A stretch of DNA of 62,429 nt, counting the filler, from Hausera hauseri (lineage: Eukaryota), in the NCBI GenBank assembly GCA_046269625.1. It is 12 parts of 12 records of this genome, joined end to end, with 100 filler letters (N's around TTAATTAATTAA, not from the genome) between each part and the next. Parts side by side here need not be neighbours in the genome. Positions count along the whole stretch, not along the records: positions 5,466 to 12,873 come from JBJURY010016677.1; positions 12,974 to 17,345 come from JBJURY010612222.1; 10 more parts are not named here. The stretch is one strand, 5' to 3'. A program made the position numbers and the translations under genes. Under the pieces are notes generated by a model. The model ran no database searches, was not told the origin of the DNA, and worked only from the letters and a program-made list of their open reading frames with translations. This document shows positions 10,206 to 16,552 of the stretch, one piece after another. How positions within the stretch are numbered: position 1 is the first letter of the stretch; the number at the start of each line of letters is the position of its first letter.

Positions 10206-10418
10206 ACTGCCGCGGATTCTAGAATTGATATGTATACATAGATAGTTATGTGAGGCCATGATATATAGGAGGTCGGTTAAAATTCAACCGTTGTGGGTCA
10301 GATAGAAATCGCTGAAGATGGAGGTATTACGAATGATAGCGTATAATTATGATGTCTCGATACGTTGTCTGACATGTACTATTTGTATTAGACTATTATT
10401 AACATAAAGGTAGAGGGG
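10206..10418 (-). pseudogene. Ubiquitin-like domain in frame with the gag N-terminal region (copy 1)
   Basis: Reading through two stops: PLYLYVNNSLIQIVHVRQRIETS*LYAIIRNTSIFSDFYLTHNG*ILTDLLYIMASHNYLCIHINSRIRGS, continuing into the linker before gag. RGS is one substitution (AGT/GGT) from RGG. Confidence 0.65.
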
Positions 10419-10815
10419 GAATGATGGTAATATACTGTAAACGGAATAGTGTGATATATCGATGTGATCATTTGAAGTTAAGAGAGTTGCTTTAAACGTT
10501 TCTTTTGAAGAATATTTTCGATCTGTGGACTCACTATGGTAAATGGATCTATTGCGCTCATAACCGATGCGTACTGAAAAATGTCGATAATAAGTAGAAG
10601 GGACGGATTCTGTCCATAGTCAGAAGCTCTAGTCAGGTACTCGCTATGATCATAAGAATAAATCGGACCGACTTTGCAATAATGTGCCTTAATTCTAACT
10701 CGTCTCATTACAGATTCATCGAATTTCATAGATGATTCGTTGTTGGTTTTTGTAGGTTTGGCAAGACAAGGCACAAGTGATGTGTAATTAACAATGCCAC
10801 AAGATGACTGTACCA

Positions 10816-11715
10816 TTGTTTTAATTTCTATGCGGACATTATCGAGCTCACGAATTCTTACCAGAGTCAAATACTTCAGAACGTAAAAGTATAGTTTACC
10901 AACTTTTTCCAATGAAGCCAATTTAAATCTCGATGTAGACTGAGTAACTTTATTAACAGTTGGAAGAGATCTCGGAAGACTAGGTCGTGGGCAAGGGCTA
11001 AAGTGAAACCATTGTGGAAAAGAATAGAGGAAATTTATGATCCGAGGAATAAGGAAAAGAAATGTTTTGCTGAAAGAATCTAGAATTCCAGGGACCTCTG
11101 AAGTCGTGCCGAAATAATAGCAACATGTATCACCAACAAACGCCTTCGCTAGACACCAGGTGTATTTTAAATTTCCCTGACGACAGGAAACGAACGGAAT
11201 CATAAAAAACAAATAGAAAATGTGATACTGCCAAAACGGGCCGGTAACAAATTTAATAAAATTAAGGCAGTTAATAGAAACTACAATAACCAAACTTTGG
11301 TCAGCCTCAATTTTCTTAATATCGGCGTAAATAATGATACCGCCATTTGTTCTGTAAATGGCAACGTCACCATATAAATATAATAGAGACAACCGAAATC
11401 AACAGCCTTGCCCAAAAATGTTCTAAAGAACATCGGTGTAACAGTGTAAGTCATCCCATTTGAAATCTTGTATAAAATCAACAGAGGCAACGGCGCGAAT
11501 GTCGGCAATAGCAACCTATGCAGCCATTTTAAATCAAGTATATCATTTACGAATCCCAAAAGTGTCATACAACCTATTGAGGGCAAACCTGTTAAATATT
11601 GAATAAAATCAATTTGCGCCGAACTGATTGTCGGTAAATTACTATTCGAAGTGGGTATGAATAGAAATCTTATGAAATAAATAACACTACGCCATAAGTC
11701 TTGCGCTTCAGGTAT
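10816..11715 (-). pseudogene. DPAGT1: Fragment of UDP-GlcNAc:dolichyl-phosphate GlcNAc-1-P transferase (DPAGT1/ALG7)
   Basis: IPEAQ...FIP, CMTLLGFVNDILDLKWLHRLLLPT, GCLYYIYM, IEADQSLVI, FVGDTCCY, GILDSFSKT and NFLYSFPQWFHFSPCPR match hallmark DPAGT1 motifs. One frameshift near 11360; both termini missing. Confidence 0.9.
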
Positions 11716-12063
11716 TTCCTTACGGACGAAACCTAGAAAAGTTTGAACGGTCTTAAATCGTCGGTTTGGAAATACTTGTATGATACTTACTTGGTCATGA
11801 TGAGACATGATTCTCAATTCCTCGTCAATATAAATACTCAAACGTAAAAATAGATAGACAATCTCAGTTTTACTCACATTTAAAGGGAGTAATCTAGAAA
11901 TGGCAGATATACATGTTTTAAGAAGATCAATTTTTGGTTTTCTTTCGGCAGTTAAGACATCGTCCGGTTCTTTGTTAACGTTTTCCTGTTTCGTCAAGAA
12001 CATCGTACGAATGTCTTGTTGGTCCCACAGTTTTAACAGGGTATCAAATGTTTTTCGAATGTC
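11707..12063 (-). pseudogene. FRY: Internal fragment of Furry/FRY-like protein
   Basis: IRKTFDTLLKLWDQQ...[31 protein letters not shown]...LRLSIYIDEELR corresponds to the conserved Furry segment [32 protein letters not shown]. Only ~120 aa of a ~3000-aa protein. Confidence 0.85.
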
Positions 12064-12199
12064 TGTTGGTGTTTTCAAAAAAAAAACTGCAGCTGTAAAT
12101 GGCGATGAAGGTGGACCTGATGGTGGAATGAGAGATGTTTCTTGCGAATTTATATAAAGGAAAGTAAAGGATTGGTATGCTGTTGTTGGCGGAGCGAAT

Positions 12200-12603
12200 A
12201 CAGTTTCTATTACTGTGGAATTTCCGAATGAACATTGCACAGCGACTTTAAGGAGAATTGTGGAAGCGTAATTGGATATCTCACAACAACTGGTATGAAC
12301 TAAACGATTATACAAACATAGAACAGGTCCAAAACCGCTTTTACGATCCTGCAAACAGGCTTCAAGAACAGCTGCTAAATTATATTTATCAATTTTACTC
12401 CCCTCCTCCAAATGTTTATTGAGTACAAGGAAATATTCCTTTATTAAGCCGTCTCTGACCAAAGCTAACAACAGTGAATTCGTTGCAGCCAATTCTTTAC
12501 GTATGTTTTTAAAAGGAACACTGTATGTAACGGTGGATGGTGAAATTCCAATTTCTTTTGCACGGTAGTAAATTCTAAATGCTGCTTCACTATGTCCAAC
12601 CAG
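12200..12603 (-). pseudogene. PPR-repeat fragment, PTCD1-like
   Basis: GHSEAAFRIYYRAKEIGISPSTVTYS is a PPR motif. ACLQDRKSGFGPVLCLY...ILLKVAVQCSFG resembles PTCD1 CIQDKKTGFRYALQVW...LLLVAARDCGLG (recalled). Confidence 0.65.
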
Positions 12604-14210: not shown

Positions 14211-14224
14211 TGATTTTGTAAATA

Positions 14225-14580
14225 TCGAAACAATGACCGGTGACAACATATACGACTCTTTATCATGTTTCAAAAAGTGTAACAATGAACGGCAAACCGT
14301 GTTGCGACGATTACCACAGATACTGTGCTTTCAAATTCTGCGCTATTCGTACGACAATTTTGGTAAAAAGAAAAATAATTTGTCCAATGTTATTTTTTCA
14401 AGTACTCTGCTCATGTCGAAGTTTGTTGGTGAAGAAGAGACACACAAAAGTAAACACGAGTATGTTACCAAAGCAATCTTAATACATATCGGATCTAAAC
14501 CAATTAGAGGTCATTATCAAACCTTGATCAATGATTCGAATAAGGGATGATTTTTTATGACGATCTTAATGTTCAAAACT
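14225..14580 (+). pseudogene. C-terminal half of a ubiquitin-specific protease (C19/USP) domain, in frame with BACK
   Basis: MTGDNIY..C.KC, RLPQILCFQILRY, His box AILIHIGSKPIRGHY, then (W)..YDDLNV after a stop/frameshift. No Cys box. Confidence 0.85.
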
Positions 14581-16024
14581 TAGAATGCTTGGAAAAGGTT
14601 CAAAAAATATTAAGATCAAAAAGAGTTCAGTCGTTAAAGTCAGAAAATAATGGCGTTAAAAAGTCAAATAAAGTTAAAGATACGTCACAATTCACATCAC
14701 CTTTACTGGACAGATTAGCAATTGAATATTCCAGTCGGTATCTCATGAGTCACATGAGTCACATGCTCAACGTTACAGATTTGTTCCATGGCGACGGTGC
14801 TAATAATTACCGTGATGACGCAGCGGTGGCGTTTGAACAACATGTATTCAAAATGTTAAATGAAATTCGCCAAATTATCGGCGCAATTTACAAAAAAATC
14901 ACGATGTTGAAATTAAACGAATGTTCAATTCTTTTCGACCTAAAGACTTATTGTCGCTTCGAAATATTAAAAATGTTGTTGCTCTCGCAGATTGTCTTAC
15001 GTCTCATTTCAAAGATCTTCAGTCAAACTTAAATCACTTGAAAGAATCAATAAGTATTTGGCTAAATGAAGTCTTGCTTTCTAAAACCGATCATATACAA
15101 CGTTACTCGTCCGTATCAATTAACAATTTGGTTGGAACGGATGATGGGATCAAGAAATTTCAAAGCGAGTACAATATTAAACAGCAATGGTAAGTCGTAT
15201 TTGAGAGTTAATTACAGTAACGAGTTATGGCAAACGATCATTCACAACTTGAAATTCAAATCAATAAATAACATTAGTAAAATTGTTTTATATGACGATG
15301 CGTTTTATTTCACTTCAACTAATGAATTTAACTTATCATCAGGTATACTGAATAAAGCATTATCTATAAGTCCAGATATTAATCTAAACTTGTATGACGA
15401 AATGTATCAAATTCATTTATTGATTATGAGTTGTGACATCGAAAATTCCGTAGCCGTTAATTGGATTAGCAAACAGTTTATTGAGTGGTTAAAAAGTGAT
15501 TTCCTAATTTAACTTACAAAACATTTAATTCGAATAATTATTTATTACGGTATAAAATTCAATGATAAATATGAGTACTGGAAAAGAGTGTGGAAAATAT
15601 TTACTCAGTCGAATGGATCTGCAGACATTGGAAGCGACGATTTACCTGTAGGGCTTTATGGAACATCGAAACCTTATCAGAAATTGTTTTAAGTAGATAT
15701 TTGAATAATCGTACACATAAAACTAATACCTTCAAATCCTACGATTTATTTGGATTATTACGATTTATTTCTGAAACTACAGATGACTGCATTATAGTAT
15801 TATTGGATGAAGGCAGACTAATCTGCGTAATTAGTCTGTCTTTCTCAATCACTTTTTTAAACTGGTTGCCCGATGTTCATGTTTCAGATTTTGACAAACC
15901 AGTTTTAATTGTACTATCATCTGGCAACATTGAAATTAACTTTCAACCTTTTGAAACCGACTGCCGTCTTAATCTATACGTTTACATCACATGGGTTTTT
16001 CAACTGTCCATCTCTCAAAAATAA

Positions 16025-16095
16025 TGTTTCACAGCTAGTGGCTACAGCAACGGTTGGATTAATTTTTGGCACATCAAAGATAGCTGCCTGTTAAT
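16025..16095 (+). pseudogene. Possible WD40-repeat fragment
   Basis: In-frame continuation of ORF 15590-16024 reads CFTASGYSNGWINFWHI, resembling the WD40 signature ASGxxDGxIxxW. Confidence 0.35.
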
Positions 16096-16301
16096 CCACA
16101 GTTCAAATTTCAACAAAAATTTGACAACTATCAATTAGTGAATTCAATTTGCAACATACCATTTTAAAACCAAAAGCACGATTCGCAGCCAATAAAAACA
16201 TTGAATGTTTGAAGTTGTTACCGCTTACAATGTATCGAAGTACTGGTCGTCCTACGACGATGATCACTCATACAAGGGATTCTCTGGTTGAGGGACCGAG
16301 C

Positions 16302-16552
16302 ATGCCCGCCCCTGTTGCGCCATGTCCCCTTTCTTTTCTTATCTTTTCTAATAACACATATGTCCACACATTAAGGGTTACATACAAACAAGCAGCTCAT
16401 ATTCTTTATACTGAATTGTCCTCTTATTTCGGCTCCTCTGACTTTTATCTTATGCACAACGGTCTAACTTTGCAACCTTACGACTCTCTTTCATCCTTTG
16501 CATTTAAGAAATACTCCATCACTCTCACTGTCCATTTTCGCATCCGTGGGGA
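16302..16552 (+). pseudogene. Ubiquitin-like domain preceding gag (copy 2)
   Basis: MPAPVAPCPLSFLIFSNNTYVHTLRV...LYTELSSYFGSSDFYLMHNGLTLQPYDSLSS...ITLTVHFRIRG. Adding one G to the G4 run at 16548-16551 gives RIRGG-SDLD... in the gag frame. Confidence 0.7.

What the first reader, a model, noticed from the sequence alone, without database searches (positions are those of the whole stretch)
10206..16552. Both host-fragment chains sit immediately upstream of, and co-oriented with, Ubl-gag with no recognisable LTR between
Seen independently on two contigs (the linker at 12874-12973 makes their back-to-back layout artificial). The gap from chain to Ubl is ~60 bp in one and ~180 bp in the other. A possible GPCR remnant is similarly placed before the truncated copy at 21808-24560. 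Inference A: a cargo-loading LTR family that accumulates mRNA fragments in its 5' leader. Inference B: uni-strand piRNA-cluster-like traps in which gene and TE fragments accumulate in one orientation.
Basis: inference. Interest (0 to 1): 0.7.

Follow-up and report, generated by a model that had tools for sequence, protein, structure and literature searches.

The report
Ubiquitin-capped retrotransposon hauling host fragments
In an unidentified animal, two dead jumping-gene copies carry chains of host-gene pieces directly in front of a ubiquitin-like domain that caps their shell protein; the pieces were likely copied in from messenger RNAs, and the cap, shared by a whole lineage of these elements, would likely let host enzymes cut the shell protein free of the extra load.

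Summary
Largely real. Two contigs each hold a decayed Ty3/gypsy element whose Gag is preceded by a ubiquitin-fold domain. Upstream, on the same strand, lie host fragments: PPR, Furry and DPAGT1 in one; BTB-BACK, USP and M1 aminopeptidase in the other (6 of 6 identified pieces sense). The chains are near-continuous reading frames (2 breaks in 2.4 kb; 8 in 3.0 kb), and parts occur in many variant contigs, more so near the Ubl. Gag relatives form a 37-row clade; all 26 rows long enough to show it carry a Ubl ending in diglycine just before Gag, and six gene models also have host pieces upstream. Best reading: mRNA pieces were captured by reverse-transcriptase template switching, and the Ubl-GG is a host-deubiquitinase cut site that frees Gag from whatever is translated upstream. 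Cleavage, transcription and LTR bounds are untested; two junctions are out of frame; a control among long-leader relatives is too small to show that the Ubl favours cargo. The stated gaps and the GPCR remnant were not confirmed; a piRNA trap is unlikely. A live rival is cargo inside the LTR. Capture is a known process; I found no report of Ubl-GG-Gag.

The parts
5492..10205 (-). c2 decayed gag-pol (Gag with two Cys/His knuckles, protease, RT, RNase H, integrase, probable pol tail); 15 breaks in 4.7 kb
10206..10412 (-). c2 Ubl domain; two internal stops; ends Gly-Ser, not Gly-Gly
   Evidence: Ubl HMM iE 7.8e-7; translation
10413..10840 (-). unidentified stretch covered by two overlapping open frames; one frame break between the DPAGT1 frame and the Ubl frame lies in 10481-10619
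10841..11727 (-). DPAGT1 fragment, human residues 50-350, no intron-sized gap, one frameshift, conserved motifs decayed
11725..12027 (-). Furry (MOR2-PAG1_N) fragment, abutting DPAGT1 in the same frame; junction spanned by an identical 421-nt contig
   Evidence: 1.6e-9; table 8 record 5
12286..12630 (-). PPR-protein fragment in the same 530-codon ORF
   Evidence: E 5.5e-14; below Pfam cut-off
12631..12873 (-). unidentified open start of the c2 chain, cut by the contig end
12874..12973 (.). artificial linker between contigs
12974..13169 (+). very high-copy repeat ending near 13169 with heterogeneous sequence behind it; no PBS follows; LTR part or unrelated repeat, not identified
   Evidence: summed depth 22,000-47,000; 54 loose ends, agreement 0.46; negative
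13389..14082 (+). BTB-BACK fragment starting at an in-frame ATG; one frameshift inside BACK
14185..14570 (+). USP C-terminal half (His box, no Cys box), in frame with BACK; one frameshift inside it
14571..15065 (+). unidentified open stretch, then a cluster of four stops at 15030-15063
   Evidence: (no usable hit)
15066..15689 (+). M1 aminopeptidase (ERAP1_C) fragment, one stop at 15510
15575..16135 (+). WD40-like fragment, weak (Pfam E 0.099), in a different frame from its neighbours
   Evidence: (no PDB hit)
16125..16331 (+). 69 open codons in frame with the Ubl; also holds an AATAAA and a TGG-started motif at 16244 that could be an LTR tail and PBS but does not score above background
16332..16553 (+). 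c3 Ubl domain, ubiquitin fold; frame break at its C-terminal glycines
16554..17345 (+). c3 Gag, 54% identical to P0151 Gag, one stop, cut by the contig end
21808..24562 (-). c5 copy: Gag C-terminus and pol only; no Ubl
58004..61368 (-). c12 copy: gag (N-terminus missing) and pol; no Ubl

Best explanation
Two dead copies of a Ty3/gypsy lineage whose Gag is capped by a ubiquitin-fold domain carry sense, nearly in-frame chains of host-gene fragments directly upstream; the fragments were likely captured from co-packaged mRNAs by reverse-transcriptase template switching, and the cap's diglycine end is predicted to be cut by a host deubiquitinase, which would free Gag from whatever is translated ahead of it. 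SHOWN: fragment identities, orientation, near-continuous frames, Ubl fold, clade-wide Ubl-GG before Gag, variant contigs over the cargo. INFERRED: (1) mRNA origin and capture by this element's RT (about 0.8); (2) new pieces are added at the 5' side, for example when minus-strand strong-stop DNA transfers to a host mRNA before the element's own 3' end, which would explain sense orientation and the fall in copy variants with distance from the Ubl (about 0.5); (3) Ubl-GG is cleaved by a host DUB (about 0.8); (4) the chain is translated in frame with Ubl-Gag, so only open junctions persist and the Ubl makes cargo tolerable (about 0.5). Selection would act on frame openness, not on the function of the pieces.
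For: 6 of 6 identified pieces sense. Minimum stop/frameshift path: c2 cargo cost 2.5 over 2444 bp (null mean 29.0, minimum 22.5; antisense 27), c3 cost 11 over 3030 bp (null 40.3; antisense 43.5), gag-pol 2.8-5.2 per kb. PPR|Furry, Furry|DPAGT1 and BACK|USP each lie in one ORF; DPAGT1 starts at the residue where Furry ends. At 5 of 11 break positions other contigs of run X1 differ from the window at or beside the break, as expected if those breaks are private to these copies (truncated tables). c2 cargo has 2 breaks where its own gag-pol rate predicts 7.8 (P 0.016), and 0 stops in 757 codons where 4% neutral divergence would give 3.7 (P0 0.015). DPAGT1 covers human residues 50-350 without an intron-sized gap while a host gene in the window has short GT-AG introns. 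22-36 contigs at places in the c2 cargo; summed depth falls from 613 to 32 towards the 5' end against about 8 for an identical single contig. Gag tree: one 37-row clade (SH-aLRT 97) holds 26 Ubl-GG rows; the other 11 have under 50 residues upstream. Ubl identity averages 19%, yet GG is kept, with L/I at -4 in 26 of 27 and never Pro after GG. Six clade gene models carry host pieces upstream: DIS3L+CNOT1, H2A, 5'-nucleotidase, SCC3 HEAT, HSP90, ARP8. Two Gags outside the clade have a 2A-like motif at the same position.
Against: Both window copies have a damaged diglycine. Two c3 junctions (aminopeptidase|WD-like, WD-like|Ubl) are out of frame and one has a four-stop cluster; 4-5 of 7 junctions in frame gives only P 0.05-0.17. 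The fresher c2 cargo could simply have been captured after gag-pol had died, which would remove any need for Gag fusion; its divergence since capture was not measured. No LTR, PBS or TSD encloses the cargo in these short contigs. No parent gene was found (none), so intron loss and junction microhomology are untested. Host domains upstream: 4 of 26 Ubl rows versus 0 of 112 others (P 0.001), but only 8 outside rows have more than 110 upstream residues, so the fair comparison is 4 of 25 versus 0 of 8 and shows nothing; the gene models may be spliced together by gene callers. Depth is not monotonic in c3 (BTB-BACK 200-290 between bins of 9-25). X1 may be the source sample. c5 and c12 show no such chain.
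Confidence: 0.45

Rival explanations
1. The cargo lies inside the LTR (short fixed cap, variable mRNA pieces, short tail), followed by a PBS and a Ubl-Gag with its own start codon. Capture is still by template switching, but the chain is not translated with Gag and the Ubl has no link to cargo.
For: Earlier unchecked AI notes on this genome describe LTRs filled with host pieces and solo cargo-LTRs with target duplications. c3 starts with a very high-copy repeat right before the chain and has an AATAAA and a TGG-started motif 90 bp before the Ubl. c5 has a pol tail, a purine tract and a possible LTR start. Both copies have an ATG shortly before the Ubl (alignment). Ten of 26 clade rows have under 100 residues before the Ubl.
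Against: The PBS candidate does not score above background and c2 has none; no shared tail between c2 and c3; it does not explain 69 open codons before each Ubl (P 0.004-0.01 each by composition) or three clean in-frame junctions.
Confidence: 0.3
2. A DNA-level capturer (Helitron or Pack-type element) assembled the chains, and they sit next to Ubl-gag by insertion.
For: Such elements make co-oriented multi-gene chains (recalled; Pack-TIRs in listing PMC8277862). The c3 repeat has a CTAG near its end.
Against: No intron-sized gaps in 300 codons of DPAGT1 in an intron-bearing genome; no GC-rich hairpin or Rep/helicase seen; would need chance adjacency to Ubl-gag twice here and again in P0001/P0151.
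Confidence: 0.1
3. Uni-strand piRNA-cluster-like traps in which gene and transposon fragments collect in one orientation.
For: Co-orientation; several contigs hold neighbouring element remnants on one strand (c5, c12).
Against: Pieces abut in frame with no spacer; many variant contigs cover the cargo; the layout recurs in other genomes' gene models.
Confidence: 0.08
4. Mis-assembly or gene-caller stitching creates the apparent chains.
For: Low-coverage, repeat-rich assembly; outside proteins are unnamed predictions.
Against: An identical 421-nt contig spans the Furry|DPAGT1 junction and a variant contig spans BACK|USP; mis-joins would not keep frame.
Confidence: 0.05

Closest known systems
LTR-mediated retroposition in metazoans (Tan et al. 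2016, PMC5131818; passages read)
   Same: Partial mRNA copies, sometimes from two or more genes, joined to LTR-element sequence, often sense and in frame, able to retropose again.
   Different: There the retrocopy replaces part of the internal ORFs; here three or more pieces stand upstream of a complete Ubl-gag-pol layout. Microsimilarity and flanking LTRs could not be tested here.
Maize Bs1 (review PMC13317346; passages read)
   Same: An LTR element with pieces of three host genes forming a hybrid ORF.
   Different: Single plant element; no Ubl; here different copies carry different chains and a clade-wide Ubl-GG precedes Gag.
Ubiquitin and Ubl insertions in cytopathic pestiviruses (PMC8310069 and PMC13517609; passages read)
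   Same: A captured ubiquitin-like unit acts as a processing signal: host hydrolases cut after it and give the downstream protein an authentic N-terminus, with other cellular sequence upstream. This is what the Ubl-GG is proposed to work like.
   Different: RNA virus; recent near-identical ubiquitin; here an old, diverged (19% identity) Ubl fixed in a retrotransposon clade, cleavage untested.
SDE2 Ubl processing by USP5 (PMC13572447; abstract and outline)
   Same: A diverged N-terminal Ubl is cut off by a host DUB to release the working C-terminal protein; the c3 Ubl weakly matches an SDE2 chain (E 1.8).
   Different: Host gene, no upstream cargo; homology to SDE2 is not established.
2A-like peptides in non-LTR retrotransposons (PMC3708506; passages read)
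   Same: A processing signal near the N-terminus separates a leader from the element's protein; two Gags outside the Ubl clade have such a motif.
   Different: Co-translational skipping, described for non-LTR ORF2; no host cargo described in the passages read.

Membership tests
Ty3/gypsy LTR retrotransposon | gag followed by pol in the order protease, RT, RNase H, integrase | tested here: met
   c2, c5, c12 align in order to the pol of L001; Gag relatives hit DUF7041 and some continue into RT/integrase
Ty3/gypsy LTR retrotransposon | two LTRs, PBS, PPT, target-site duplication | tested here: inconclusive
   contigs end too early; no direct repeats or scoring PBS; candidates only
LTR-mediated retroposition | captured sequence is partial and intron-free relative to its parent | tested here: inconclusive
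   partial and without intron-sized gaps against human DPAGT1; parent gene not found
LTR-mediated retroposition | flanked on both sides by element sequence | tested here: inconclusive
   3' side is Ubl-gag; 5' side is a contig end (c2) or an unidentified high-copy repeat (c3)
LTR-mediated retroposition | microsimilarity at switch points | not testable with these tools
   needs parent mRNA sequences
LTR-mediated retroposition | cargo replaces part of the internal ORFs | tested here: not met
   Ubl, gag and pol are all present downstream in c2; this is the variant feature
LTR-mediated retroposition | further rounds of copying of the chimera | tested here: inconclusive
   22-36 contigs at places in the c2 cargo and deletion joints inside both chains; linkage of whole chains in other copies not shown
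Cleavable ubiquitin-like fusion (SDE2/pestivirus type) | beta-grasp ubiquitin fold | tested here: met
Cleavable ubiquitin-like fusion (SDE2/pestivirus type) | C-terminal diglycine followed by a non-proline residue | tested here: met
   27 of 27 outside rows with a Ubl match (16 were seeds chosen by GG; 26 of 26 clade rows long enough); damaged in both window copies
Cleavable ubiquitin-like fusion (SDE2/pestivirus type) | cleavage by a host DUB | not testable with these tools
   needs a bench assay
Uni-strand piRNA cluster | strand-biased piRNA production | not testable with these tools
   no RNA holder listed
Uni-strand piRNA cluster | single locus of independent, spaced insertions | tested here: not met
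   pieces abut in frame and are covered by many variant contigs
Helitron / Pack-type capture | genomic fragments with introns retained | tested here: inconclusive
   no intron-sized gap in 300 codons of DPAGT1, but parent intron positions unknown
Helitron / Pack-type capture | characteristic termini enclosing the cargo | tested here: inconclusive
   a CTAG near 13156 without a GC-rich hairpin; inverted repeats were not searched

The most novel reading that the evidence does not exclude
A widespread Ty3/gypsy lineage uses a DUB-cleaved ubiquitin-like cap as a built-in cargo bay: host mRNA pieces are added one after another in frame ahead of Gag, selection keeps the frame open while the pieces decay, and host deubiquitinases release Gag, so the element mass-produces chimeric host-domain polypeptides; sister lineages solve the same problem with 2A peptides.
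Probability: 0.33. Interest if true: 0.85.

Novelty: new variant of a known kind. Interest (0 to 1): 0.65.

Why it matters
Gene capture by LTR elements is known but is treated as an accident that usually cripples the element. A Gag released by host deubiquitinases would be a new maturation route for a retrotransposon capsid protein, and would explain how an element can carry kilobases of host coding sequence ahead of Gag without loss. It gives a direct test: cleavage of a natural Ubl-GG reporter, and junction-frame statistics in one long-read assembly. It would also be a natural engine of exon shuffling. The clade-wide Ubl-GG is the firmest new fact; its link to cargo is the open part.

Tried and rejected
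No whole genome was held. No RNA holder listed. The c2/c5 match at 5490-5641/26736-26896 was first read as an LTR and rejected: it is a coding tail. GPCR in c5: no Pfam hit in stop-to-stop or read-through frames. PBS scan with motifs taken from L001, L006 and L007: nothing above background. No tRNA or Rfam match. Locus searches for Ubl-clade elements: alignment A2 too diverse; A4 gave 0 of 212 and 0 of 51 candidates; A5 gave 7 loci from a scan that stopped at 28 of 64 parts, all ordinary relatives with no Ubl hit, so the DNA upstream of other Ubl-gag copies remains unsurveyed. Word-indexed protein searches found nothing for the Ubl, the WD-like stretch or DPAGT1. Atlas: only sub-0.9 AAA-lid leads for 14544-15029, nothing for 15575-16021. 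Weak Pfam hits (Pox_M2, PMT_C3, SH, CIMIP3, Anemone_cytotox) treated as noise. The Fisher test of host domains (P 0.001) was set aside as unfair because outside rows are short. Complex prediction was not used. Earlier-finding look-ups by sequence, words and place found nothing for this family.
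Full report
Setting. The window is 12 contigs joined by N-padded linkers; no whole genome is held. The host is an unidentified animal: a neuropeptide-convertase-like subtilase gene at 3454-5176 has short GT-AG introns. Four contigs (c2 5466-12873, c3 12974-17345, c5 21808-26898, c12 58004-62429) hold decayed members of one Ty3/gypsy family, 64-69% identical in DNA over pol or gag, with protease, RT, RNase H and integrase in gypsy order.

The observation. In c2 (minus strand) a 530-codon ORF joins a PPR piece (PDB E 5.5e-14, below Pfam cut-off), a Furry piece (1.6e-9) and DPAGT1, which begins at the residue where Furry ends and continues after one frameshift to human residue 350. 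In c3 (plus strand) come BTB-BACK, the C-terminal half of a USP, an unidentified stretch, an M1 aminopeptidase piece and a weak WD40-like piece. All 6 identified pieces are sense to gag; none of 46 antisense peptides reaches a Pfam cut-off. The Ubl is real in both (profile hits iE 1.5e-9 and 7.8e-7; ubiquitin fold, pLDDT 79.6, TM 0.73-0.79). I found no shared LTR-like segment or scoring PBS between chain and Ubl. The GPCR is unsupported; the far end of c5 is a probable pol tail of another copy. c5 and c12 lack the Ubl and their leaders are as closed as random sequence.

The chains read as decayed ORFs. The cheapest path of stops and frameshifts costs 2.5 over 2444 bp in c2 (null mean 29.0 of 60 resamples, minimum 22.5) and 11 over 3030 bp in c3 (null 40.3), against 2.8-5.2 per kb for gag-pol. 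Coding origin alone explains openness inside each piece, so the junctions matter. Three are cleanly in frame (PPR|Furry, Furry|DPAGT1, BACK|USP); USP to aminopeptidase keeps the frame but passes four clustered stops; DPAGT1 to Ubl has one frame break; the last two c3 junctions are out of frame in this copy. That is 4-5 of 7, P 0.05-0.17 under random frames: suggestive only. In the truncated tables of run X1, other contigs differ from the window at or beside 5 of 11 break positions, including the c2 cargo-to-Ubl interval and the c3 Ubl-to-gag break (12 of 45 and 12 of 40 indel rows, 40 of 1786 and 40 of 504 substitution rows were shown), as expected if those breaks are private. c2 cargo has 2 breaks where its own gag-pol rate predicts 7.8 (P 0.016), and no stop in 757 codons where 4% neutral change would give 3.7, although DPAGT1 motifs have decayed. 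This fits selection for an open frame, but equally a late capture into an already dead element; divergence since capture was not measured.

Copy evidence. One public run holds the stretch and may be the source sample. An identical single contig has depth about 8; places in the c2 cargo are covered by 22-36 contigs near the Ubl and 3-6 at the far end, with summed depth falling from 613 to 32; pol reaches 47,000. c3 rises from 19-80 in the middle to 982 next to the Ubl, but BTB-BACK stands at 200-290 between bins of 9-25. The tool warns that summed depth is no copy number; the contig counts show variants exist. Contigs span the Furry|DPAGT1 and BACK|USP junctions. c3 begins with a very high-copy repeat that ends near 13169 with heterogeneous sequence behind it and no PBS; it matches nothing else in the window and is unidentified.

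The Ubl-Gag clade. A Gag profile searched against 1.84 billion representatives gave 1099 hits; I examined the best 150. In a quick tree of 149 of them, a 37-row clade (SH-aLRT 97), mostly with two Cys/His knuckles, holds 23 of the 24 rows with a Ubl at iE under 0.01, plus three weaker ones. The 11 other clade rows have under 50 residues upstream and cannot show it. All 27 Ubl matches end in GG, 15-50 residues before the Gag core; 16 were seeds chosen by GG, so the non-circular count is 26 of 26 clade rows long enough. The domains average 19% identity; L/I stands at -4 in 26 of 27 and the residue after GG is never proline. Conservation of only the tail is what a DUB substrate would show (established for ubiquitin fusions; SDE2 abstract; pestivirus passages). 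Six clade gene models have host pieces upstream: DIS3L and CNOT1 in the closest relative (996 aa on a 3554-bp contig), H2A, 5'-nucleotidase, SCC3 HEAT, HSP90 and ARP8 (E 0.001; PDB searches were run on three chosen clade rows only). By Pfam cut-off this is 4 of 26 against 0 of 112, but only 8 outside rows have over 110 upstream residues, so 4 of 25 against 0 of 8 is the fair count and is not informative. These are unnamed predictions that may be spliced by gene callers. Two outside Gags (P0099, P0108) have a 2A-like motif in the same position (canonical motif).

Mechanism. Most likely RT switches onto co-packaged mRNAs and back, as in Tan et al. (passages). A switch at minus-strand strong-stop transfer would add each new piece on the 5' side and in sense, matching the gradient (inference). 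If the transcript then starts in or before the cargo, ribosomes reach Gag only through open junctions, and a cleavable Ubl would give Gag a clean N-terminus whatever lies ahead. Joint confidence 0.45. The main rival (0.30) came from earlier unchecked AI notes on this genome: cargo inside the LTR, ahead of a PBS. I tested it partly: c3 has an AATAAA and a TGG-started motif before the Ubl, and both copies have a nearby ATG, but nothing scores above background and c2 shows no such motif. The two readings share the capture step and differ on translation. DNA-level capture (0.10), a piRNA trap (0.08) and artefact (0.05) fit worse.

Novelty. Capture of several host mRNA pieces by LTR elements is known. 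Three full-text searches for a ubiquitin-like domain on a retrotransposon Gag returned nothing relevant by listing (one listed paper read in passages concerned OTU/Ulp1 proteases); subscription journals, Repbase entries and supplements were not seen, so absence from print is not shown. Verdict: new variant of a known kind; interest 0.65. The Ubl-GG-Gag clade is well supported; its role in cargo tolerance is a testable hypothesis.

Noticed in passing
proteins P0099 and P0108: Gags outside the Ubl clade with a 2A-like motif just upstream of the Gag core; P0108 matches the canonical motif.
   Followed up: partly
protein P0102: A Ubl ending in GG before a Gag that falls outside the 37-row clade; possibly a second acquisition.
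   Followed up: no
window 25420-25686 (-) and 25991-26407 (-): In the c5 leader, a Cys-rich ORF recalling a Sec23/24 zinc finger (recalled, no Pfam hit) and a coiled-coil or Myb-like ORF (Pfam E 0.06-0.07), both sense to the element; a 92-bp tandem duplication at 26344-26527 and two TGTGGTGCCG motifs.
   Followed up: partly
window 12974-13169: Unidentified very high-copy repeat; two contigs join it to a TA microsatellite.
   Followed up: partly
window 51065-52783 (+): Broken Monjiviricetes-type fusion glycoprotein (Pfam 1.5e-29) in a contig of long ORFs, with a possible Ubl-like stretch at 49970-50150 (seen by eye only).
   Followed up: no
window 34176-38143 (+): Gypsy integrase tail followed by long accessory ORFs, one with a weak arenavirus nucleoprotein C-terminal (exonuclease-like) match (E 0.0009).
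   Followed up: no
window 54410-55586 (+): ORFs recalling a Polinton/adintovirus capsid and protease (recalled; no Pfam hit).
   Followed up: no
window 3454-5176 (+): Subtilase (proprotein-convertase-like) host gene with introns of about 47 bp.
   Followed up: partly
window 27000-34073 (+): A 2358-codon Ser/Thr-rich repetitive ORF, mucin-like.
   Followed up: no
window 17446-21707: Low-complexity A/C-rich simple-repeat contig with internal gaps.
   Followed up: no
L001 64-222 and 5181-5339; L006 1-111 and 3988-4098: Ordinary non-Ubl relatives assembled as circular permutations or tandems, with PPT, LTR and PBS-like motifs before gag.
   Followed up: partly
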